DNA of 26,097 nt from a virus, in the UHGV virus genome UHGV-0386553; one strand, given 5' to 3'. Position 1 is the stretch's first letter; each line of letters opens with the position of its first letter. The notes under the pieces were generated by a model that saw nothing but the letters and a program-made list of their open reading frames with translations, had not been told where the DNA came from and made no database searches. The translations under genes and the position numbers were made by a program. This document shows, in pieces, positions 1,160-11,289 of this stretch.

Positions 1160-1666
1160 TTAACAGTCGAAAAATTCTGGGTCCCACAAACTTGCATCGC
1201 GCGGCATGGATTCTAACTTTTTCAGCCGCAAAATTCTGTCACACTCGACAACTAATTTTTGCTTCTGCTCGTCAATTTCTACTGTCTTATGTGCTGGTTC
1301 ATCCCAATAATCCAGAAGGAAGGCATGGCGTTCAGATGTGACCAGATAAATCACATACACGTCACTGGTTGGGATCTTTTTATGCTTGTTAGTGGTCTTG
1401 TCTTTCTTCCCAGACGCCCAGTTTTTCCAGCATTGTTCCGTACCGCTCTCACCAAACTTGTCAGTATAGTTTCCGATGTTTACATGAACGTGGCGTATGT
1501 GATATTCCAGCATCTCTTTCGGTGGATCCCGAAACAGAGTGTCCTTTCCGAAATCCTTATGATGACCGTAGCGCCAGTGATCTATGAACGCGTTTTTGAT
1601 AGGTATTAGCTCAGGGTCCTTCCCAAAAATTCCAGGGTGAACCAACCCCTGGAATTTATTCGGCAT
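1160..1666 (-). CDS. YafO-like toxin-domain protein (168 aa); putative toxin
   Basis: Track ORF 1160..1729; preferred start is the ATG at 1664-1666 (GGAG 10 nt upstream), which overlaps the last codons of the upstream gene. Motifs FGKDTLFRD, HIRHVHVNIGN and YVIYLVTSERHAFLLDYWDEPAHK recall E. coli YafO (FGRDALYDD, AHIHLAN, HLVYCQGAFDEQAWLLIAILKPEPHK). Comparison is from memory. Confidence 0.55.
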   Translation of the reverse strand: MPNKFQGLVHPGIFGKDPELIPIKNAFIDHWRYGHHKDFGKDTLFRDPPKEMLEYHIRHVHVNIGNYTDKFGESGTEQCWKNWASGKKDKTTNKHKKIPTSDVYVIYLVTSERHAFLLDYWDEPAHKTVEIDEQKQKLVVECDRILRLKKLESMPRDASLWDPEFFDC

Positions 1667-2183
1667 CGTCGTAGAGCTCCTGAGCCATATCTTCAGCAGT
1701 GCGTGCAAACATCCTGCGCGAGATTGCATGGGATTTCTCTACGGACATCTTTGGGACCTCATACATAACAAGTTGATGAGTTTTCTCATCAACTTGAAGT
1801 GGCTTGTATAAACGTTGCCACCTTTCGTTAATTTTATCCTTAAAGCCAGCGAAACCACTTTCCTGACTCTTGTATCCAAAATGAGATAAAGCCAAATTCC
1901 TTTCCATTTCATTCCTAATGTACTCAGCAAGGTTGCAGTGGAATACTTCCCCTTGTTTTTTTAGGCATGCTTCATGGTCTGTAACACTGTGACGGCTCTC
2001 ATATAAGTAAATGCGATAGGAATTTTTATTATCCTCTTCTTCATAATTTCTAATCGCATCAGCAGTTGCCATAGCTGCAGCGTAAGCGGCTGCTTCAATC
2101 ACCATCTCTTGCTCTTTTTCTTTTTCAGGCCTTTTCAAGGCAAAGCGTCTATGCCTCATCGCTGTAACTCTCTTCGTGTTCAT
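1656..2183 (-). CDS. Hypothetical protein (175 aa), basic N-terminus and acidic C-terminus; putative partner or antitoxin of the downstream YafO-like gene
   Basis: Track ORF 1656..2195 starts at TTG; the ATG at 2181-2183 gives MNTKRVTAMRH... Its 3' end overlaps the downstream start (ATGCCGAATAA). The C-terminus is acidic (ELYDDAE). No family recognised. Confidence 0.55.
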   Translation of the reverse strand: MNTKRVTAMRHRRFALKRPEKEKEQEMVIEAAAYAAAMATADAIRNYEEEDNKNSYRIYLYESRHSVTDHEACLKKQGEVFHCNLAEYIRNEMERNLALSHFGYKSQESGFAGFKDKINERWQRLYKPLQVDEKTHQLVMYEVPKMSVEKSHAISRRMFARTAEDMAQELYDDAE

Positions 2184-2195
2184 GGGCACCCCCAA

Positions 2196-2391: not shown

Positions 2392-2602
2392 CGGGATTGG
2401 CGTTCCGGATTACTACAGAGGCACATATGCCGCATAAGCGGTTTTTTTATGTGTAAAGCGCACCTATTCTATGGTGGGCTGTGTGGGGGCACCGAAAGGT
2501 GCGCCGGGTTCCTTTGTAGCCGGTTACGCCAACCCTGCACAGTTCACCACCAACCGATTGGCGTCGGTAGTGGTGATTAACCTAACTACAAAGGTGATCA
2601 CT

Positions 2603-3289
2603 ATGACTGCTAACGTAACCCCATCTGTTTTTCATTTTGAATCAGAAGCAACCATTCGAGCCATTGTTATTGATGGAAATCCTTGGTTTGTTGCCAAAGA
2701 CGTTATTAAAGCTCTTCAACTGACAAACCCCACTATGTCAATAAAATCTCTTGATGATGATGAAAGGGCTAAATTTAACTTAGGCCGTCAAGGCGAAACC
2801 AATATTATCAACGAGTCAGGCCTCTACACACTGATCCTCCGCTGCCGCGACGCAGTGACACCAGGCACTATCCCCTACCGCTTTCGTAAATGGGTTACAG
2901 GTGAGGTTCTTCCTCAGATCCGTCGCACCGGAAGTTACATTAAAAACTCGCTCCCGCAGGAAGAACGCATAAAGATGGTTGCCGACCAGGTAGCCAACGC
3001 CACGGCGTCAGCAGTAATGCAGGCGATGAAGATAGAGAACAAAACCTACAGCGCCCCGCTGAAGCCCGGCTACCGCAGCCTGATTCATTCGCCGTCTGGT
3101 GTTCTCGGCCTGACGGAGAACTCACTGCTGATGAATCTGCTGAACCAGTTACAGGAAGACGGGCACGACGTATCGGGCGCGGCGGCGGAGCTGACCACCA
3201 TGTTCTGTTACATCGTTGGTGTGAGCAAATGCCTGCGTGATATCCAGACGCACGCGGAGTACATCAACGACAAGGCAGGGTTCTTCTGA
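2603..3289 (+). CDS. Bro-N domain protein (228 aa), antirepressor-like
   Basis: ATG at 2603 with AAGGTG RBS; the track ORF starts at 2471 but the upstream part is GC-rich leader. N-terminus VFHFESEATIRAIVIDGNPWFVAKDVIKALQL...NESGLYTLILRCR matches the Bro-N signature (F.F....R.....G..WF.A.DV...L; NESGLY.LIL). The C-terminal domain is paralogous to the product of 879..1136. Confidence 0.7.
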   Translation: MTANVTPSVFHFESEATIRAIVIDGNPWFVAKDVIKALQLTNPTMSIKSLDDDERAKFNLGRQGETNIINESGLYTLILRCRDAVTPGTIPYRFRKWVTGEVLPQIRRTGSYIKNSLPQEERIKMVADQVANATASAVMQAMKIENKTYSAPLKPGYRSLIHSPSGVLGLTENSLLMNLLNQLQEDGHDVSGAAAELTTMFCYIVGVSKCLRDIQTHAEYINDKAGFF

Positions 3290-4108: not shown

Positions 4109-4270
4109 ATGAAAAAAGCATTTGCTGCACTGTTCGTTTTGTTGTCTCTGGTAGCTTCAACTCAGGCCTTTGCCGGTCGTTGTCAGCACGACAGCGACAC
4201 TGCTGCTGACGGCTCCCGCTGCGGTGGGCGTTCTGCGGATTCCCGCCCTGGCGGCGGTGGCATTCGTTAA
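4109..4270 (+). CDS. Small predicted secreted peptide (53 aa; signal peptide plus about 31-aa Gly/Cys-containing mature part)
   Basis: Track ORF 4037..4270 begins inside the terminator T-tract. The ATG at 4109 gives MKKAFAALFVLLSLVASTQAFA followed by GRCQHDSDTAADGSRCGGRSADSRPGGGGIR; a terminator hairpin follows. Possible promoter TTGACG (4068-4073)-N16-TATAGA. Weak RBS. Confidence 0.3.
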   Translation: MKKAFAALFVLLSLVASTQAFAGRCQHDSDTAADGSRCGGRSADSRPGGGGIR

Positions 4271-4276
4271 AAACAA

Positions 4277-4300
4277 GGCCGCGAAAGCGGCCTGTTTGAT
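4277..4300. terminator. Hairpin terminator between convergent genes
   Basis: GGCCGC-GAAA-GCGGCC perfect stem (4277-4292) followed by TGTTTGAT on the plus strand and preceded by AAAACAA; lies between the ORF ending at 4270 (+) and the ORF ending at 4300 (-). Confidence 0.6.
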
Positions 4301-5151
4301 CACTGTGCAGTTTTCGCTGATCGATTTTCAGCTCTAAATTCAAGAACCGTTTCAATATTTCTTTCCTTCAGCATATCAATAACATTTTTATTCATTTGAC
4401 TATCACTGGTTAATAACTGGTAAACGTTGCTTCTCTCTTTATCAGAGTTTTCTTTAACAGCTGCTTTGCATGCCAAATGCTTATTGAAATTTTCTACATC
4501 GCTAGTACAGGAATTTACGGCTGCTGATGAAATATCAGACGCTGAAGAAACACCATCATCCAAACGTTTTATAGCATTTTCTATACATGAGTTAAGGGAA
4601 TAAACGACAACTGAGCGATACCCTTCAGACGCACACCATTCTAAATTTCTTGAAGGATCGAGTGGTTTTACTTCGCTGGATTGAATTAACTTGTCAAAAA
4701 CTGACTTATATTCAATCTGTTTTTTATCTATAGCCCATACTTCAGTAGCTGATTTATAATTCCCCGTATGCCTATTAACATCAAATCCATGTTTTATAAG
4801 CAAATCTGCCCATGAAAGATTTATTGATTCATTGTTATGAGGCCATTTTCCTGTCAGAACCGCCCCCATAGACCCCATATATCCGCCATATGATGGTATA
4901 GCACCATGGCTCAGTAACTTCTCAGCAACCACAGGGCAATTAATTACATAAGAGGCGTAAAGCCCATTCCATAAAGCCCCTCTATAGTAATCGCCACGAT
5001 TAGGTTCTTTTAAGTCGATAGCCTTTGATAATTGTTCACACGTTTTGCATGCATCAAAGTTATCCTTATTGCATTGCAATGAACTGGCAGCTGTAGGATT
5101 TACAGAGACTATTGAAAGCACTATGCCAAAAAACAAATTTATTTTTTTCAT
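4300..5151 (-). CDS. Secreted or periplasmic protein (283 aa) with N-terminal Sec signal peptide; possible ankyrin-like repeats
   Basis: N-terminus MKKINLFFGIVLSIVSVNPTAASS is a typical signal peptide. Its ATG lies 1 nt after the stop of the 1129-aa gene (TAGGATG). AT-rich compared with the structural genes. Segments LLSHGA.. and ADLLIKHGFDVN loosely resemble ankyrin repeats (weak). Confidence 0.65.
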   Translation of the reverse strand: MKKINLFFGIVLSIVSVNPTAASSLQCNKDNFDACKTCEQLSKAIDLKEPNRGDYYRGALWNGLYASYVINCPVVAEKLLSHGAIPSYGGYMGSMGAVLTGKWPHNNESINLSWADLLIKHGFDVNRHTGNYKSATEVWAIDKKQIEYKSVFDKLIQSSEVKPLDPSRNLEWCASEGYRSVVVYSLNSCIENAIKRLDDGVSSASDISSAAVNSCTSDVENFNKHLACKAAVKENSDKERSNVYQLLTSDSQMNKNVIDMLKERNIETVLEFRAENRSAKTAQ

Positions 5152-5152
5152 C

Positions 5153-8100
5153 CTATTTCATCTGCTCTTCAACTTTATTTAGTAATGGTGATATCGCCCA
5201 CAGATTCTGAAAAGGTAGCATTTTACGGACAGCGTGGGTTTGCTGGCTGTCAAATTCTCCGTTAAGTACACCATTTGCAACCGTCGCGGCATCACCGCCA
5301 AGATCAAAGGTAGGACCAAGTAAAGCACCAATAGCATTACGACTCTGAAACCTTGATACCGGAGGCGCACCAAACATCGCGCCAAGACCAAACCTACCGC
5401 CGCTTATGTTCTCAACGGTATTCAGCGGCTCAGAGAGCCAGCCAAGCATTCCGCCCCGGTCGATCCCCTCTTTCACAAGGTTATTCCAGCTGTAGTCGAT
5501 ATCGCGACCGCTTAACTTCTGTTTCATCATATAGACCATTGAGCCAAGCGCAATCGTGCCAAGCGCACCAAGATAGAATGCAGCATCGCCCTGCTGGATA
5601 CCAGATACCAGCACCCTGTTATGCTGTGCGAAGATAAACGTTTTAAACTGCGTGATCATCTTCCAGCCTTCTTTACTAAAAAACAGCGGGGTATCACCTA
5701 CGCCAGGCGTTACAATCACTGAGTCTACATCTTTCAGCACTGCAGACTGGAAAATCTCTCTAGCGAAACGGTCATCCCACAGATGACTATGCCCGGTTAA
5801 CAGCCCGTCCATATCCTCTCCGTGCTTCCCGAATTGCTCCCCGATTCGGCGCAGAACATCTTCATTGATGCCGACCTGTGCCATCTTCCGCATTTCACTT
5901 TTGGAGAGCGTGCCACCAGCAGAAACTTGGCGAGCCGCGTCAAGTATCCTCGACTGCACTATCATCCCGGACCATGATTTAAGTGCGCTGTTCCACTGAT
6001 TCATCAGCGTCCAGTTACCGAATTTCTGCGTCATCCAGTTCAGACCTCGCTCAGCGGCGCTTCTCCGGCTATAGGGGTCAGTAAGATCCGCTATAGCCTT
6101 TGTACGCGTAGACAGGACATAATCAAGCCCAACGGCCATTTCTCGCAAATCCCTGGTTGCAATTTTCACTGAGTCCATATTTTTAAGCATGCTTACCATT
6201 GGTCCGAGAGATTTTCTCAGGCCATGCTGCATCATCGGTCGCATCAGATCAGTTGCAGCGGAGACGGTCATTCCACCAAGCAAACGGAGGAAGTTAATAT
6301 TCCTAGCAACTCGCCCGGCACGAACAAAGAAACTGCGTGGATCTTGAGGTGCGCCGTAAGTACCAAGCAGTCGGTCACGCATAGCCGTAATATCCCTAAT
6401 ATCAGCCTCCCGTTGCTTCTCAAGAGCTGCACGTCGTTTAGGTGTTTTAGCCTCTTTTATTAGCCGGGTATATTCCTCACTAACCTGACGGATTTGCTCC
6501 CCCATATCTTTACGGCCAAACTGCGCAGTCAGCTCAATTTCTGGCGCCACCTGCCGGAGATAACTTTCCATGATGTAGTTAACATCTGATTCAAGAAAAT
6601 CTTCTATACGCTCATCAGGAATAAGCAGCGTTCGGCTTTTAGTGAAACCAGCCCGACCAACGAGTCTCTCTGGGATAATATCGGCTGGTACAAGCCCGGA
6701 AGGTGCGCCTATTATTTTATTCACGATCTCGTCAGCAGCGTCCTCTGCTTCCTCTCGGGATAGAGGCTCCATCTGCTTCAGTGCTCGCTCGCGGCTTGCA
6801 TTCAGCCTTGTGGTTGAATTTGCCCGTTTTTGCAGTCGGCGAAGCTCAGAACGATATTTCCGTGGATTATCCAGCAACTCCATATGGCGCTGATAGACAG
6901 GAAGCTCACTCTTTGCCTGCGCTATATCATCAAGGCGTGTTTTAAGGTCAGAGCTTTCTTTCATCATTCTTGCCTGAAGTTTTTCTGATGAAGTCTCGGC
7001 CAACTCTTTTTCTATTCTTGTAAGACGCGCCTGTGTGTCAGTCTCCTGAGATATAAGCTTATTTCGTTTATCCAGTTCTTCCATGAGTAGAATTTTTTTA
7101 CCAGACCATTTCTCCGCTTCAGCGATTTCACTAGCGAGAGCATCAGCGCGCGGTGCTGATTCCTCTGCAGTTTTTAGCAATGAATTTATCTTTTCAATTC
7201 GCTGACCTGCTTTGTCAGCACCTTTGGCACTAATCCCTTGTATCCAGTTGGCAATTCGCCCTCTGAATTCAGTGCGGTCGGAAAGTATCTTATCGAACTT
7301 ATAAATGCGGGGAAGATAACTTTTCGCCGTCACGACATCGATATCCTCAGGAAGGATCCCCAGTTCCTGCATACGGGCTTTTGTGGTCTCGAAAATGGGG
7401 CGGATTCTGGCGGCTGCTTGTGAAACCTCAGGAATATCACTCTGATCACCACGGCGCATAGCCATGCCAACAGCTTCATTGAAATCAATAAAGTTCATCC
7501 TCTTCACGCCGCGGGCGCTAACAGATTTGCTGTACTGCTGGTAAGCATCACGAGTGGCTTCCATCTGCTTATAAAGCATGGCGTCGTATTGCTTAATCTT
7601 AGTCTCGACTGCCGTAAACGTAGCCAACCCCTCATCATTTTTGGCGAAGAAATAGTTATTTTCGGCAAGCTGCTGGTTAATCTGACGGGAGACAAGAGAT
7701 GGTGATTGAGCCAAGCGGCCAGCAGGAGTGACACTCAACGTTTTGTTAGCAAGTCCAAGTCCAGCGAGCTGTTCCTGATCGAGTGTGGTATTGAAAACCT
7801 GAGCTGCACCAATGCTTTGAGGAGAATCCATACCTCGCAAATGATTACCTACTGAGTTAACCACTGCCTCGCGCGCGCTAGGTCCAGCAAGTAGCTGTGC
7901 ACCAGCACCAAGGATCCCACCAACGAGAGCATCAACAACAACGTTCGATACACTCTCCATCGGTGAGCGAGCTTCCTGAGTGGCCTGCAATGCGGCCTCT
8001 GAAGCAACACTGCCAGCAGCATTGGCTAAAGCAAAACGTCCGGCTGTTTCTGCAATACGACCGCCACGAACGACAGCGCCGAACGGAATAAACATAGAAA

Positions 8101-8542
8101 TCGCATTGAATGGATCTGCTAATCTCATTGCTACAGAAGAGACTGTACCAGCAAATCCCAAGCCTGAATTGTATTCCATGTCAGCTCTCTGCTTATCGAT
8201 TCGATGTTTAATTGCCATTGTTTCTTCATGCGAACCGGAGTTGATAAACGAATCTGCAAAATCTTCATAGCCTTTAATATCTGCTGCATCGTTATCAAAT
8301 GGGTTATATCCTTCAACCCTGTCAAACTGACTGAAAGGAGCACTGGCAATAAAGCTACCCAGCGTGTTATCTATACGAAATGCTGCTTGTCTAGACCTTT
8401 GAACGCGTTGATCACTGGTAAATGGGTTCACAGCAGAAAGCAAAGAAGGTGTTTCCATATAGAAATTACTGTCATCAGGTGCTGCTATTTGCTGAATATC
8501 CTCGCCAAGCAACTCTTTAGGATCCTGTTCATATATCGGCAT
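5153..8542 (-). CDS. Internal virion (DNA-ejection) protein, T7 gp16-like by position (1129 aa)
   Basis: Large ORF at the end of the coupled structural block; long coiled-coil-like central region. Called by size and synteny (gp13-gp14-gp15-gp16-like run after the tail tubular genes). No lytic transglycosylase motif recognised. Confidence 0.6.
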   Translation of the reverse strand: MPIYEQDPKELLGEDIQQIAAPDDSNFYMETPSLLSAVNPFTSDQRVQRSRQAAFRIDNTLGSFIASAPFSQFDRVEGYNPFDNDAADIKGYEDFADSFINSGSHEETMAIKHRIDKQRADMEYNSGLGFAGTVSSVAMRLADPFNAISMFIPFGAVVRGGRIAETAGRFALANAAGSVASEAALQATQEARSPMESVSNVVVDALVGGILGAGAQLLAGPSAREAVVNSVGNHLRGMDSPQSIGAAQVFNTTLDQEQLAGLGLANKTLSVTPAGRLAQSPSLVSRQINQQLAENNYFFAKNDEGLATFTAVETKIKQYDAMLYKQMEATRDAYQQYSKSVSARGVKRMNFIDFNEAVGMAMRRGDQSDIPEVSQAAARIRPIFETTKARMQELGILPEDIDVVTAKSYLPRIYKFDKILSDRTEFRGRIANWIQGISAKGADKAGQRIEKINSLLKTAEESAPRADALASEIAEAEKWSGKKILLMEELDKRNKLISQETDTQARLTRIEKELAETSSEKLQARMMKESSDLKTRLDDIAQAKSELPVYQRHMELLDNPRKYRSELRRLQKRANSTTRLNASRERALKQMEPLSREEAEDAADEIVNKIIGAPSGLVPADIIPERLVGRAGFTKSRTLLIPDERIEDFLESDVNYIMESYLRQVAPEIELTAQFGRKDMGEQIRQVSEEYTRLIKEAKTPKRRAALEKQREADIRDITAMRDRLLGTYGAPQDPRSFFVRAGRVARNINFLRLLGGMTVSAATDLMRPMMQHGLRKSLGPMVSMLKNMDSVKIATRDLREMAVGLDYVLSTRTKAIADLTDPYSRRSAAERGLNWMTQKFGNWTLMNQWNSALKSWSGMIVQSRILDAARQVSAGGTLSKSEMRKMAQVGINEDVLRRIGEQFGKHGEDMDGLLTGHSHLWDDRFAREIFQSAVLKDVDSVIVTPGVGDTPLFFSKEGWKMITQFKTFIFAQHNRVLVSGIQQGDAAFYLGALGTIALGSMVYMMKQKLSGRDIDYSWNNLVKEGIDRGGMLGWLSEPLNTVENISGGRFGLGAMFGAPPVSRFQSRNAIGALLGPTFDLGGDAATVANGVLNGEFDSQQTHAVRKMLPFQNLWAISPLLNKVEEQMK

Positions 8543-11289
8543 TATTTGCCCCCTGCGTATATATTGCTCGGAAGGTAATTGGCTGAACCATAACCGAATG
8601 GTTTGGTCAGATCTGGAGGAGTATATCCATCTTTATTGCTGAACTGCGGCAGCAGATTGCCTTCTCTCCGCACTCTAGCCTCATCAACACGTTGTTGCTG
8701 GAACTGAATGGTTTGCCTGTACATTGGAGATGTCAGCTGATCCGGCTTGAAACGAACAGGGAGACCATTTTCTCCAATATAATTTCTCGGTTCTATCGCT
8801 CCGTTTGCGTCAGGCTGTAAAACCATAACAGCATAACTCCTATCCCTTGCCGTAAGGCCATCAGAAACAAGTATTAAGTCCGTATCACTGCGAGGACCGC
8901 CAAAGGATTTTGATTTAAGCTCGCGTTTTTCCTGCTCCCACTGCCCCTGTATCCAGTTACCAGCACCATTATTTACTCCGTACAATGCCTCAGGTGCATA
9001 CTTCATAACCTCTGCTTTGCCATTAACTGTAGAAACTCCCCAGGTGGTTCTGATCATGGCATTGGTCATTTTCTCAGCCTGTTCTGCATCGCCACCTGTC
9101 TGTACAAAGTTAGCATCGTAAATTGTCTGGTAATCTCGCTGATAGGCCGCATTTGATTTTCCTGGATCGGTAATATCCGGAGACCACGAACCAAAGGAAG
9201 TCAGACTGCTGGCGTTATTTTGTGCAGCAGTTGCCCTCGCCGCGACATATTTTTTGTCTCGCATGGCAGTGGAAAGCATCTGTTTCATTCGGTCATCCTG
9301 TTGGAACACCTGGCTGTAAGCCATATCAACAGCCTTATCCTCCGGCACGCCAGCGCGGGAATAATCGTAAACCTTGCCGTAAAATGCCATCGTACTTTTA
9401 TCAAGTGTTGCCGCTGCCGCCGGATTATTATCGAATAACTGACCGTAGAATTTTGCCATCGGGACAACCAGCGCAGGATCTCTTGATGTTGCTCCACTGT
9501 TAAGCATTGTTTTAACCTGAGTTGGTATCATGCCGCTTTTAGTTGTGACGGTGACCAGTGTATTGATGCTCTGCGGATCAGATATGGAAAACGAAGGCGC
9601 GATATCCTGCGCGAAATAACGGTCTACCGCTGCCTGATTGTTTTTGTCGTTCGGGTCCAGCGGGAAGTTATTTTGCATTGAAGACACGAACCTGTTTCTT
9701 CCCTGCTGAATCTCCCACTCCCTATCCATCTCTTTAAATTTGGCCTGCATTTTCTCCCAGCGTTGCTGGTTAGCTGCAAATCCAGGAGCGTTTGGATCCT
9801 GTGGACGTAAACGTTCAAGAATGTCTTGTCGTCCTTCTGGAGTGAGGTCTTTAGCGGCACCAATGACACCTCCATATTGTATCTGCGCCTGCATATCCTT
9901 CCACTTCATAGCGCCAATGCGCGGACCATTGGCCCGGATAAAATCGTCCTCAGAAGGTAACTTCTCAGGTTTCAATCCTTCATCAAGGGCTGAATATGCA
10001 TCTTTAACTACGGTGCTAAGCTGGTCCGCATACTGCTGGCGGTACTGATTTCTCAGCTCATTAGCCTGCCTCAATGCCTGTATTTGCATTTGAGGGCTCA
10101 TAGCATCAAATGCCGCATTGCCCGTATAACGCTTAGGTGAATCAAGGTTAGTTAGACCAAGGGCTGCCGAGATACCAGTTTCAAGCTGTTCGGTGCTATA
10201 AAGCATACTGCCATTTTCGTGTTTAATAATCCCAGCACATAAAGCAGCTAGTGTCTTTGGGTTAGAGATATCAAGCTGATCATTCTCCCCAACACCAAGC
10301 TCACCACACAATGCCCTAATATAAGCATCAGTATTATTACCATCACTAGCCGGAGCATAGCGATTAACAATCTCGCTAACGGTGTCATAGCCTTGACGCT
10401 GGTAAGACAACATATTTTTACCCAACGCGCGGATTCCATGCTCAGGGGTAGCAAACGTTGCAAAACGTCCATCGCTACCGATCTGACCTTCCCACGGGTT
10501 AGATTTGCTCGCTTCAATATTACCAGGGTTATTATTACGTAAACCACGAGCATCCAATGAATTACCATGTGATATTGCACGACTCACACCATCAAGATCC
10601 CCTGGCTCTCCATTAACCTGAAGAAACTCGTTGTATTTTTGAGCGATATTTCCTATCCATGCTTGCTGCCCCATTTGTTCCTTGAGCTGAGTTTTCTGCT
10701 GAACACGCCACTCATCAGGAAGCCCATGCGCATCAGCGTATTGATCAATAGATTCAAATCGCTGCTTGGCTAAATCGACAAATGCTTGGTTATCGCTATA
10801 TAGCCCCGCAGACTGAGTGACAGCCAATGCATTTCCTGACAAATACGTTTGATCTTGGAATTGCTGAAACTGCCCAACTTCATATCGACGTGCCTGATTG
10901 TAATAAGACTGCATAGACTGCTGGAGTTGAAAGGATAATTTATTCCTTTCCTCACTTTCAGGAATTGAGCCTAATAATGCCTGAGCCCTTTCCTGCATAT
11001 TTTTCATAACAGCGTCACTCTGACCAAGAGCGTTTTTACCCTGTTTAGAAATCAGCCCACTTTCAGGGTTGTTAATCTGGTCATCTGCAAATTGGTTAAA
11101 TTGCAGTAACGCCTCCTGGGCCATAGCAACATTCGCTTTCTGCCTGGCTTCACCATATGCCACCGCATACTGATCTGCGACATTCGCCAGCACCTGACCT
11201 GCTTGAGGAACATCGAAGATCTGAAAACCACCGGTTTGCACACCACGACTTTGCACCTGGCGTCCGGATGTAGTAGGAACAACAGGCAT
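8542..11289 (-). CDS. Internal virion protein, T7 gp15-like by position (915 aa)
   Basis: 1-nt overlap coupling with both neighbours. Called by size and synteny. Contains the segment GLRNNNPGNIEASKSNPWEGQIGSDGRFATFATPEHGIRALG, which looks like a conserved enzymatic or binding motif (unverified). Confidence 0.6.
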   Translation of the reverse strand: MPVVPTTSGRQVQSRGVQTGGFQIFDVPQAGQVLANVADQYAVAYGEARQKANVAMAQEALLQFNQFADDQINNPESGLISKQGKNALGQSDAVMKNMQERAQALLGSIPESEERNKLSFQLQQSMQSYYNQARRYEVGQFQQFQDQTYLSGNALAVTQSAGLYSDNQAFVDLAKQRFESIDQYADAHGLPDEWRVQQKTQLKEQMGQQAWIGNIAQKYNEFLQVNGEPGDLDGVSRAISHGNSLDARGLRNNNPGNIEASKSNPWEGQIGSDGRFATFATPEHGIRALGKNMLSYQRQGYDTVSEIVNRYAPASDGNNTDAYIRALCGELGVGENDQLDISNPKTLAALCAGIIKHENGSMLYSTEQLETGISAALGLTNLDSPKRYTGNAAFDAMSPQMQIQALRQANELRNQYRQQYADQLSTVVKDAYSALDEGLKPEKLPSEDDFIRANGPRIGAMKWKDMQAQIQYGGVIGAAKDLTPEGRQDILERLRPQDPNAPGFAANQQRWEKMQAKFKEMDREWEIQQGRNRFVSSMQNNFPLDPNDKNNQAAVDRYFAQDIAPSFSISDPQSINTLVTVTTKSGMIPTQVKTMLNSGATSRDPALVVPMAKFYGQLFDNNPAAAATLDKSTMAFYGKVYDYSRAGVPEDKAVDMAYSQVFQQDDRMKQMLSTAMRDKKYVAARATAAQNNASSLTSFGSWSPDITDPGKSNAAYQRDYQTIYDANFVQTGGDAEQAEKMTNAMIRTTWGVSTVNGKAEVMKYAPEALYGVNNGAGNWIQGQWEQEKRELKSKSFGGPRSDTDLILVSDGLTARDRSYAVMVLQPDANGAIEPRNYIGENGLPVRFKPDQLTSPMYRQTIQFQQQRVDEARVRREGNLLPQFSNKDGYTPPDLTKPFGYGSANYLPSNIYAGGK

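What the first reader, a model, noticed from the sequence alone, without database searches (positions are those of the whole stretch)
4300..5155. AT-rich gene for a signal-peptide protein translationally coupled to the last ejection-protein gene
The 283-aa ORF starts 1 nt after the stop of the 1129-aa gene (TAGGATG), so it is co-translated with the ejection proteins, yet it has a classical Sec signal peptide and AT-rich composition suggesting foreign origin. A periplasmic protein made from the late operon is unusual. Candidate roles are superinfection exclusion acting on incoming phage DNA ejection in the periplasm, envelope modification, or a secreted lysogenic-conversion factor. Possible ankyrin-like repeats are a weak impression only.
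Basis: partly seen in the sequence, partly recalled or inferred. Interest (0 to 1): 0.65.

Follow-up and report, generated by a model that had tools for sequence, protein, structure and literature searches.

The report
Periplasmic ankyrin inhibitor of phage wall-cutter
The last gene of this prophage's virion operon encodes an exported two-domain protein, and relatives of its ankyrin-like half sit next to the same cell-wall-cutting enzyme that the phage carries in its DNA-ejection machinery, so it is most likely a periplasmic blocker of that enzyme that keeps further phages out.

Summary
A 283-aa ORF lies on the minus strand at 4300..5151. It starts 1 nt after the stop of the 1129-aa internal-virion gene (TAGGATG). 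It is AT-rich (GC 0.37 against 0.475) and has a Sec-type signal peptide. A hairpin terminator follows it.

The protein has no Pfam, NCBIfam or PADLOC match and belongs to a PHROG of unknown function. It has two domains, and each also exists as a separate family of secreted proteins.
- The N-domain has a divergent ankyrin-repeat fold.
- The C-domain is a Cys-containing helical bundle that also occurs as a stand-alone gene in accessory slots of other prophages.

Stand-alone N-domain homologues lie directly beside a gene for an Enc34-type (PHA02564) peptidoglycan hydrolase in 8 of 11 independent loci. Those hydrolases lack signal peptides. The same hydrolase domain sits in this phage's 915-aa ejection protein, and in all four phage lineages that carry the gene. 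A related phage with an SLT domain at that position lacks the gene.

My best reading is a periplasmic immunity-type inhibitor of the virion-borne wall hydrolase. That would make it functionally like T4 Spackle, but with an unrelated fold and a different enzyme. Binding, inhibition and expression timing are untested.

This is a new variant of a known kind. Interest is about 0.6.

The parts
4300..5151 (-). Target gene: 283-aa exported two-domain protein (stop codon at 4300-4302)
   Evidence: 100% identical in Escherichia phage EC.W1-9. Present in 106 of 5426 complete E. coli genomes. phrog_6118, function unknown. No Pfam, NCBIfam or PADLOC hit.
5083..5151 (-). Sec-type signal peptide, aa 1-22/23 (MKKINLFFGIVLSIVSVNPTAAS); SPase I type, no lipobox
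   Evidence: Sequence. Heuristic scores 14 of 14 family members as signal-peptide-like. pLDDT is below 50 for residues 1-23. Conservation starts at Cys27.
4657..5082 (-). N-domain, aa 24-165: Cys-rich cap (C27, C35, C38, C72) plus about 3 divergent ankyrin-like repeats
4303..4656 (-). C-domain, aa 166-283: helical bundle with C173, C189, C215, C228 and the motif LDDGVSxASDI
   Evidence: pLDDT 88-95 over residues 171-270. Stand-alone secreted homologues of 110-155 aa exist. They lie in prophage accessory positions, including directly downstream of a CI-like repressor.
5152..5155 (-). Junction: TAG stop of the 1129-aa gene plus a 1-nt spacer before the target ATG
4268..4293 (-). Intrinsic-terminator-like hairpin (AGGCCGC-TTTC-GCGGCCT, then TGTTTTT) 6 nt after the stop. 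It ends the late operon and coincides with a mosaic boundary.
   Evidence: About 400 E. coli genomes match only the sequence from window ~4295 downwards.
10153..10548 (-). Proposed target: Enc34-type (PHA02564) peptidoglycan-hydrolase domain, aa 248-379 of the 915-aa internal virion protein (gene 8542..11289). The catalytic Glu equivalent is E358 in IIKHENGS.
   Evidence: PDB 7q47 at E 2e-16 and 9vvp_L at E 4e-36. Identity and catalytic residues of 7q47 (PMC8943055). Coordinates.
5153..8542 (-). 1129-aa internal virion (ejection) protein gene, immediately upstream and co-oriented
8542..11289 (-). 915-aa internal virion protein gene that carries the hydrolase domain
   Evidence: (phrog_1044/873/7182)

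Best explanation
The gene encodes a Sec-exported, disulfide-bonded periplasmic protein made of two fused modules. I propose that the N-terminal ankyrin-repeat module is an immunity-type binder of the Enc34-type (PHA02564) peptidoglycan-hydrolase domain. This phage carries that domain inside its 915-aa ejection protein.

The proposed mechanism is as follows. The protein sits in the periplasm of a cell that harbours the phage. There it captures the hydrolase domain of ejection proteins delivered by incoming phages of the same or related type. The cell wall is then not opened, so DNA entry is blocked and wall damage (lysis from without) is avoided. This is what T4 Spackle does to the gp5 lysozyme.

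What is shown:
- the ORF, its junction, its composition and its terminator;
- signal-peptide features and conserved cysteines;
- the ankyrin fold;
- the two-module architecture;
- the genomic pairing and co-divergence with Enc34-type domains;
- the accessory (dispensable, replaceable) status of the gene.

What is inferred:
- export;
- physical binding and inhibition;
- the exclusion phenotype;
- when the gene is expressed. The sequence suggests late expression with the virion operon. That could protect induced cells from phage released by neighbours that lyse earlier, but this is my speculation.

The role of the C-terminal module is unknown. It could be a second binder or an anchoring or oligomerisation domain.
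For: 1. Stand-alone N-domain homologues lie directly beside an Enc34-type hydrolase gene in 8 of 11 independent intact loci.
- The loci are L011/12, L013-15, L016/17, L018, L019, L020, L030 and L034.
- They show three different gene arrangements and two hydrolase subfamilies.

2. Compartments are asymmetric, as in effector-immunity pairs. Signal-peptide-like N-termini occur in 29 of 34 stand-alone N-domain proteins and 14 of 14 full-length proteins. They occur in 0 of 5 hydrolase partners.

3. Distances between N-domains mirror distances between their cognate hydrolase domains over 11 pairs. Mantel r is 0.79, and 0 of 5000 permutations reach it.

4. All four phage lineages that carry the gene have the Enc34-type domain in the ~915-940-aa virion protein.
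- The lineages are E. coli, Serratia, Morganella and the distant L038.
- L038 was examined as a test after the hypothesis was formed.
- TL-2011b has an SLT domain at that position and lacks the gene.
- The one Vibrio relative examined (L005) has neither the domain nor the gene.

5. The hydrolase domain is homologous to the muralytic Enc34 endolysin and keeps the catalytic Glu.

6. The N-domain has an ankyrin fold, a protein-binding scaffold.

7. The gene is dispensable for the phage. Near-identical prophages and a Klebsiella phage keep the hydrolase domain but carry other cargo in the slot.

8. An orphan copy sits in a non-prophage chromosomal site. C-domain homologues sit next to a CI-like repressor. 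Both point to a host-protective role.

9. There are precedents.
- T4 Spackle (PMC7677548).
- The Bdellovibrio ankyrin Bd3460, which acts on its own endopeptidase (PMC4686830).
- The periplasmic ankyrin immunity protein Tli.
Against: - No binding, inhibition or phenotype data exist.
- Three intact stand-alone loci (L029, L031/32, L033) have no Enc34-type neighbour.
- The 8 positive loci fall into only about two deep bacterial clades. With the phage clade that makes three, so the number of independent events is small.
- The gene is the last cistron of the late operon and no promoter of its own was found. Expression in the lysogen, where exclusion matters most, is therefore unsupported. Spackle, in contrast, is an early gene.
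- The Morganella prophage's own endolysin is Enc34-type, 42% identical to its virion domain. A broad inhibitor made late would oppose that phage's own lysis unless it is specific.
- Two relatives keep the domain without the gene.
Confidence: 0.5

Rival explanations
1. Orphan immunity against bacterial toxins. The prophage carries the protein to protect its host from Enc34-type cell-wall hydrolases delivered by competing or predatory bacteria, not from phages.
For: The stand-alone pairs look like bacterial effector-immunity modules, several in Bdellovibrio-like MAGs. An orphan full-length copy exists outside any prophage. L033 looks like an immunity-gene cluster.
Against: Every phage lineage with the gene carries the same domain in its own ejection protein, and the two co-diverge. 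The phage-clade hydrolase domains are closest to one another, not to the bacterial partners. No Enc34-type bacterial toxin is known in Enterobacterales from the data gathered here.
Confidence: 0.13
2. Self-management of the phage's own enzyme. The protein limits or times the activity of the phage's own hydrolase. It might quench leftover ejected enzyme in the periplasm, or tune lysis in phages with an Enc34-type endolysin. On this view it does not exclude other phages.
For: It is co-transcribed with the ejection genes in all lineages. The Morganella prophage has an Enc34-type endolysin. Bd3460 is a self-protection precedent.
Against: The E. coli prophage's endolysin is GH19, not Enc34-type. 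Newly made ejection protein is cytoplasmic until lysis. Close relatives do without the gene.
Confidence: 0.12
3. Unrelated periplasmic cargo. The protein is an ankyrin-based binder of some host or environmental protein (lysogenic conversion, envelope function), and the link to Enc34-type domains is inherited synteny without a functional interaction.
For: No known-family match. Three stand-alone loci lack the hydrolase neighbour. The slot carries unrelated cargo in other phages. The C-domain family has no link to hydrolases.
Against: Adjacency persists through three gene arrangements and about 35% sequence identity. The compartment asymmetry is typical of immunity pairs. The association reappears in phages where the two elements are not adjacent.
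Confidence: 0.2
4. Virion or assembly protein: a structural component or chaperone of the ejection proteins.
For: Its position as the last gene of the virion operon, and the 1-nt coupling.
Against: A conserved signal peptide and 8 invariant Cys indicate the periplasm. The gene is absent from near-identical prophages that are otherwise complete. It is AT-rich accessory DNA.
Confidence: 0.03

Closest known systems
T4 Spackle (gp61.3), periplasmic inhibitor of the tail lysozyme gp5 (PMC7677548, PMC7650644)
   Same: It is phage-encoded, has a signal peptide, and is a small disulfide-containing helical protein in the periplasm. It targets the cell-wall hydrolase carried by the infecting virion. The result is superinfection exclusion and protection from lysis from without. 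It is selective for the virion enzyme over the endolysin.
   Different: There is no sequence or fold relationship: this protein is ankyrin repeats plus a separate helical module, 260 aa mature against 75 aa. The target enzyme is Enc34-type (PHA02564), not a T4-type lysozyme. The host phage is a temperate podophage. The gene is last in the late operon, whereas Spackle is early. The function here is inferred, not shown.
Bdellovibrio Bd3460, ankyrin self-protection protein against the DD-endopeptidase Bd3459 (PMC4686830)
   Same: It is a periplasmic ankyrin-repeat protein encoded next to a secreted peptidoglycan hydrolase, which it neutralises. Several stand-alone homologues of the N-domain are from Bdellovibrio-like MAGs.
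   Different: No detectable sequence homology: Bd3460 was not among the PDB profile hits. The enzyme class differs (endopeptidase against glycosidase). The system is bacterial, not phage.
Periplasmic immunity proteins of type VI effectors, e.g. the ankyrin-repeat Tli of Enterobacter cloacae
   Same: The immunity protein is exported and the effector has no signal peptide. The genes are adjacent. An ankyrin scaffold is used as the inhibitor.
   Different: Tli neutralises a phospholipase and is a lipoprotein. Here there is no lipobox, the partner is a wall hydrolase, and no T6SS genes were seen near the stand-alone pairs.
P22 sieA and other prophage morons placed after the ejection-protein genes
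   Same: It occupies an accessory slot right after the last ejection gene. Its content varies between relatives. It is AT-rich and followed by a terminator, and an antirepressor region lies nearby. The position of P22 sieA is from my own knowledge.
   Different: SieA is an inner-membrane protein with a different mechanism. I found no promoter of its own for this gene.

Membership tests
Ankyrin-repeat proteins | Match to Pfam ANK profiles (PF00023, PF12796 and relatives) | tested here: not met
   No Pfam family at E <= 0.1. Stand-alone homologues also have none.
Ankyrin-repeat proteins | Fold: stacked repeats of beta-hairpin/loop plus two antiparallel helices | tested here: met
Sec (SPase I) secreted proteins | Positively charged n-region, 10-15-residue hydrophobic h-region, small residues at -3/-1, no lipobox | tested here: met
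   Sequence is MKK / INLFFGIVLSIVSV / NPTAAS|S. Heuristic is positive for 14 of 14 family members. SignalP was not available and export was not tested.
T4 Spackle-type superinfection exclusion | Binds and inhibits the virion-borne cell-wall hydrolase | not testable with these tools
   Only genomic association is available.
T4 Spackle-type superinfection exclusion | Sequence or fold homology to gp61.3 | tested here: not met
T4 Spackle-type superinfection exclusion | Expressed before or independently of virion genes (early, or in the lysogen) | tested here: inconclusive
   It is the last cistron of the late operon with a 1-nt spacer, and no sigma-70-like promoter lies within 600 nt upstream. No transcript data exist.
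Effector-immunity pairs for periplasm-acting wall hydrolases | Immunity gene adjacent to the hydrolase gene | tested here: met
   8 of 11 independent stand-alone N-domain loci. In the phage the two are in one operon, separated by one gene.
Effector-immunity pairs for periplasm-acting wall hydrolases | Immunity protein exported, effector without a Sec signal | tested here: met
   29 of 34 against 0 of 5
Effector-immunity pairs for periplasm-acting wall hydrolases | Cognate co-variation of the two partners | tested here: met
   Mantel r 0.79, 0 of 5000 permutations. Co-inheritance alone could produce this.
Phage morons | Deviant composition, and presence or absence among close relatives | tested here: met
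   GC 0.37 against 0.475. The gene is also AT-rich in Serratia, Morganella, L038 and L040. It is replaced by other genes in L003 and L028.
Phage morons | Own promoter and terminator | tested here: inconclusive
   A terminator is present. No promoter was found.
Enc34-type / PHA02564 hydrolase (the proposed target domain in the 915-aa protein) | Sequence homology to the Enc34 endolysin catalytic domain, with the catalytic Glu and the aromatic residues | tested here: met
   7q47 at E 2e-16. E358 aligns with Glu131, Y323 with Tyr95, and Y311 replaces Trp79. Enzymatic activity of this particular domain was not tested.

The most novel reading that the evidence does not exclude
The protein founds an undescribed class of prophage-encoded, periplasmic, ankyrin-based inhibitors of virion-borne Enc34-type wall hydrolases. 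Because that domain occurs in 806 sequenced phages, it could act as a broad entry-level defence for lysogens. Those phages include the T7-like 'DNA ejectosome' proteins of Escherichia, Salmonella and Klebsiella phages, at about 50% identity. The stand-alone pairs in bacteria, including Bdellovibrio-like predators, would then be a new hydrolase-immunity family. The fused C-domain would be a second, independent exclusion module.
Probability: 0.25. Interest if true: 0.8.

Novelty: new variant of a known kind. Interest (0 to 1): 0.6.

Why it matters
To my knowledge, only one phage protein has been shown to inhibit a virion-borne wall hydrolase: T4 Spackle.

If this reading holds, it shows three things:
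- The strategy would also be used by temperate podophages, with an unrelated (ankyrin) scaffold against a different enzyme family.
- It would name the function of a protein present in about 2% of complete E. coli genomes, and in Klebsiella, Serratia, Morganella and Providencia prophages.
- It would predict a defence acting before DNA entry that current defence catalogues do not list (no PADLOC hit).

It also matters for phage therapy. Lysogens carrying the gene might resist T7-like phages whose ejectosome uses the same domain.

Independently, it defines a candidate hydrolase-immunity gene pair in environmental and predatory bacteria.

Tried and rejected
- Pfam, NCBIfam and PADLOC scans of the protein and of both stand-alone families gave nothing.
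- A profile search against PDB with the whole family gave only weak DARPin hits.
- I first recalled PDB 7q47 as the Pae87 muramidase. The papers showed it is the Enc34 endolysin domain, and I corrected this.
- The first genome scan, with the 15-sequence alignment, failed for lack of a conserved stretch. A 7-sequence alignment worked but gave few loci.
- Two promoter scans upstream of the gene found nothing convincing. A perfect TTGACA lies 22 nt from TAAAAT, which is too far apart.
- A lipoprotein reading was rejected because no family member has a lipobox.
- Literature searches for the accession numbers, the phage name, and ankyrin-based superinfection exclusion found no prior description.
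Full report
**The observation**

The window is a temperate podophage of Escherichia. It is 100% identical over this gene to phage EC.W1-9, and it is integrated next to yfgI in strains such as APEC O18.

The ORF in question is on the minus strand, 4300..5151, 283 aa. The gene upstream, 5153..8542 (-), encodes a 1129-aa internal virion protein (phrog_342). It follows a 915-aa and a 191-aa (T7 gp14-family) internal virion protein. On the coding strand the junction reads TAG-G-ATG.

A hairpin with a T-run lies 6 nt after the stop (4293..4268). GC is 0.367 against 0.475 for the two ejection genes, and GC3 is 0.28 against 0.42-0.44.

The N-terminus is MKK, then INLFFGIVLSIVSV, then NPTAAS, with no lipobox.

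**The family**

The protein has no Pfam, NCBIfam or PADLOC match, and its PHROG has no function.

Full-length relatives are few. They occur in Klebsiella (84-89% identity), Serratia (61%), metagenomes (54-59%), and Morganella and Providencia (about 40%). All have a signal-peptide-like N-terminus (14 of 14 in a heuristic). Eight cysteines are invariant, which fits a disulfide-bonded periplasmic protein.

The gene is in 106 of 5426 complete E. coli genomes. The neighbouring ejection gene is in 120.

**An accessory gene in a cargo slot**

The homologues in Serratia, Morganella and a distant metagenomic prophage (L038) sit in the same place. In each case the gene is the last one after the large ejection gene, with a gap of 11-31 nt.

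The gene is nevertheless dispensable:
- Klebsiella phage ST512-KPC3phi13.3 (1129-aa protein 92% identical) has an unrelated 204-aa gene there.
- E. coli strain 13081 (98% identical) has two other small genes there, one of them also secreted.
- TL-2011b has different genes on the other strand.

About 400 E. coli genomes share only the DNA that starts at the terminator, near window position 4295. A mosaic boundary therefore lies at the 3' end of the gene.

The gene is AT-rich in every host:

| Host / locus | Gene GC | Comparison GC |
|---|---|---|
| Serratia | 0.40 | 0.54 (ejection genes) |
| Morganella | 0.35 | 0.52 (ejection genes) |
| L038 | 0.375 | 0.54 (ejection genes) |
| L040 orphan (between copA/cueR-like and nfeD/band-7 genes) | 0.43 | 0.635 (rest of the chromosomal locus) |

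**Two modules**

An exhaustive HMM search showed that the protein is a fusion.

Residues 1-165 match a family of stand-alone secreted proteins of about 160-175 aa. The phage protein keeps all 17 invariant residues of that family.

Residues 166-283 match a different family of secreted proteins of 110-155 aa, with the motif C...LDDG[VI]SPASDIA...C.

The C-domain is a confidently predicted helical bundle with no informative structural neighbour.

**The key lead**

I looked at where the stand-alone N-domain genes lie. In Paraburkholderia unamae and in several metagenomic contigs, the next gene encodes a small protein that begins ...RGIRNNNPGNIR...F-TFDTPEHGIRA...RWAP..ENNT.AY...HENG. The same domain occupies residues 248-379 of this phage's own 915-aa ejection protein.

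By sequence that domain is homologous to two solved structures:
- PDB 7q47 (E 2e-16), the catalytic domain of the Hafnia phage Enc34 endolysin;
- the N-terminus of a 1295-aa phage protein, Gp29, in 9vvp (E 4e-36).

The Enc34 domain belongs to family PHA02564. It is muralytic, with catalytic Glu131 plus Trp79 and Tyr95, and it was proposed to be an N-acetylglucosaminidase (PMC8943055). The phage protein keeps the Glu (E358) and the Tyr, and has Tyr in place of Trp.

**How strong is the association?**

I built HMMs of the three domains and searched six-frame ORFs of every fetched locus.

Eight of 11 independent loci with an intact stand-alone N-domain gene and usable flanks have an Enc34-type gene directly adjacent. 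The gap is 0-25 nt, or the genes overlap.
- N-domain gene then hydrolase: L011/12, L013-15, L034.
- Hydrolase then N-domain gene: L016/17, L018, L030.
- Convergent: L019, L020.

Three loci have none: L029, L031/32 and L033. L033 instead has two more small secreted ORFs and an ORF that looks like a GH24 lysozyme. Three further loci end at contig edges, and two hold degraded copies.

The hydrolase partners have no signal peptide (0 of 5). The N-domain proteins do (29 of 34). This is the compartment asymmetry of effector-immunity pairs.

Pairwise distances of N-domains and of their cognate hydrolase domains are correlated over 11 pairs (Mantel r 0.79, 0 of 5000 permutations). The pairs fall into three clades: phage, 'RNNNPGN' bacterial, and 'RNQNPGN'+DUF3892 bacterial. 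Co-inheritance could give the correlation by itself, so the number of truly independent events is small.

**Tests within the phages**

If the link is functional, phages that carry the gene should carry the domain.
- E. coli, Serratia and Morganella prophages do.
- I then fetched the distant L038 prophage, whose 939-aa protein is only about 30% identical overall. It also has the domain (E 9e-56).
- TL-2011b, a relative whose 905-aa protein has an SLT transglycosylase domain at the same position (aa 263-342), lacks the gene. The one Vibrio relative I examined (L005) has neither.
- Two phages keep the domain without the gene, as expected for an accessory function.

**Mechanism proposed**

The protein is exported. 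In the periplasm its ankyrin module binds the Enc34-type hydrolase domain of ejection proteins delivered by incoming virions. This prevents local wall digestion, and so prevents channel formation and DNA entry, or wall damage at high multiplicity.

This is what T4 Spackle does to the gp5 lysozyme. Spackle is periplasmic, a 75-aa helical bundle with a disulfide, and has a weak effect, if any, on the T4 endolysin (PMC7677548).

Periplasmic ankyrin proteins that neutralise a cognate enzyme are known:
- Bdellovibrio Bd3460 (PMC4686830);
- E. cloacae Tli.

The C-domain's relatives are also prophage cargo. One lies directly downstream of a CI-like repressor, the classical place for exclusion genes, and another lies beside tail and lysis genes. 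The fusion may therefore combine two protective modules, but I have no evidence for what the C-domain binds.

**Weak points**

- Nothing biochemical is shown.
- The gene looks late-expressed. It has a 1-nt spacer and a poor Shine-Dalgarno sequence, and two scans found no promoter. Exclusion in lysogens needs expression from the prophage. A late-made inhibitor could still protect induced cells from phage released by neighbours that lyse earlier, but that is my speculation.
- The Morganella prophage's endolysin is itself Enc34-type, 42% identical to its virion domain. The inhibitor would have to be specific, as Spackle is.
- Rival readings remain open and are scored in the report sections. They are orphan immunity against bacterial toxins, self-management of the phage's own enzyme, and unrelated periplasmic cargo.

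**Comparison and novelty**

In function the closest known system is Spackle. In architecture the closest are ankyrin immunity proteins. The protein is homologous to none of them: there is no shared PHROG, and no Spackle or Bd3460 among the structural or profile hits.

I found no paper that mentions the protein or ankyrin-based superinfection exclusion. The searched library is incomplete.

The Enc34-type domain occurs in 806 phage records. These include 'DNA ejectosome component / internal virion protein D' of T7-like Escherichia, Salmonella and Klebsiella phages, at about 50% identity. Only one phage record holds the N-domain. If the inhibitor is not strictly specific, it could act as a prophage-borne defence against such phages.

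**Verdict**

I rate this a new variant of a known kind. Confidence in the full mechanism is about 0.5, and somewhat higher for the narrower claim that the N-domain is a cognate binder of Enc34-type hydrolases. Interest is 0.6.

Noticed in passing
window 4109..4270 (+): A 53-aa ORF: signal peptide MKKAFAALFVLLSLVASTQAFA plus a 31-aa Gly/Ser/Asp-rich peptide with two Cys. PGAP calls it 'transmembrane anchored protein'. It is convergent with the target and shares the hairpin at 4276-4293. The module that starts at window ~4295 and contains this ORF is matched, in whole or in part, in about 500 E. coli genomes, far more than carry the target.
   Followed up: partly
L028 7849-8289 (-) and 8302-8751 (+); L003 7558-8172; L004 7638-8201 (-): The slot after the last ejection gene is a cargo hot-spot. 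Other prophages carry unrelated small genes there, including another protein with a signal peptide (L028, 146 aa) and one that looks membrane-anchored (TL-2011b, 187 aa).
   Followed up: partly
L006/L007 12247-12723: The Morganella prophage that carries a target homologue uses an Enc34-type endolysin. It is 42% identical to the hydrolase domain of its own virion protein.
   Followed up: partly
L040 9492-10316: A full-length homologue (P0017) sits as an orphan in a 63.5% GC chromosome, between cueR/copA-like and nfeD/band-7 genes. There are no phage genes in the 11.9-kb contig. Its own GC is 42.8%, and a 260-nt upstream intergenic region precedes it.
   Followed up: partly
L033 745-2905: A stand-alone N-domain homologue is followed by two further small secreted ORFs and an ORF that looks like a GH24 lysozyme on the other strand. 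The layout resembles an immunity-gene cluster.
   Followed up: no
L025 1614-2843: A stand-alone C-domain homologue (P0082) lies 64 nt downstream of, and co-oriented with, a CI-like repressor gene (HTH_3 + Peptidase_S24). This suggests expression in the lysogen.
   Followed up: no
L016-L020, L030 (hydrolase partners): One subfamily of the bacterial Enc34-type partners has the motif RNQNPGN and ends in ..ERAEGKF. In L016 the C-terminal extension that follows matches DUF3892. Several are from Bdellovibrio-like (Bacteriovoracia, Oligoflexia) MAGs. How they are exported is unknown.
   Followed up: no
window 8542..11289 (-) compared with L004 1895-4612: The homologous ejection proteins of related phages carry different wall-degrading domains at the same position: Enc34-type here and SLT (PF01464) in TL-2011b. 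This is a domain swap.
   Followed up: partly
window 1160..2195 (-) and 2471..3289 (+): The accessory region beyond the target holds a BRO-N/Ant-type antirepressor. In APEC O18, PGAP calls the corresponding pair of genes a YafO-family toxin with a small upstream partner. NCBIfam gave no hit for the window ORFs as I delimited them.
   Followed up: no
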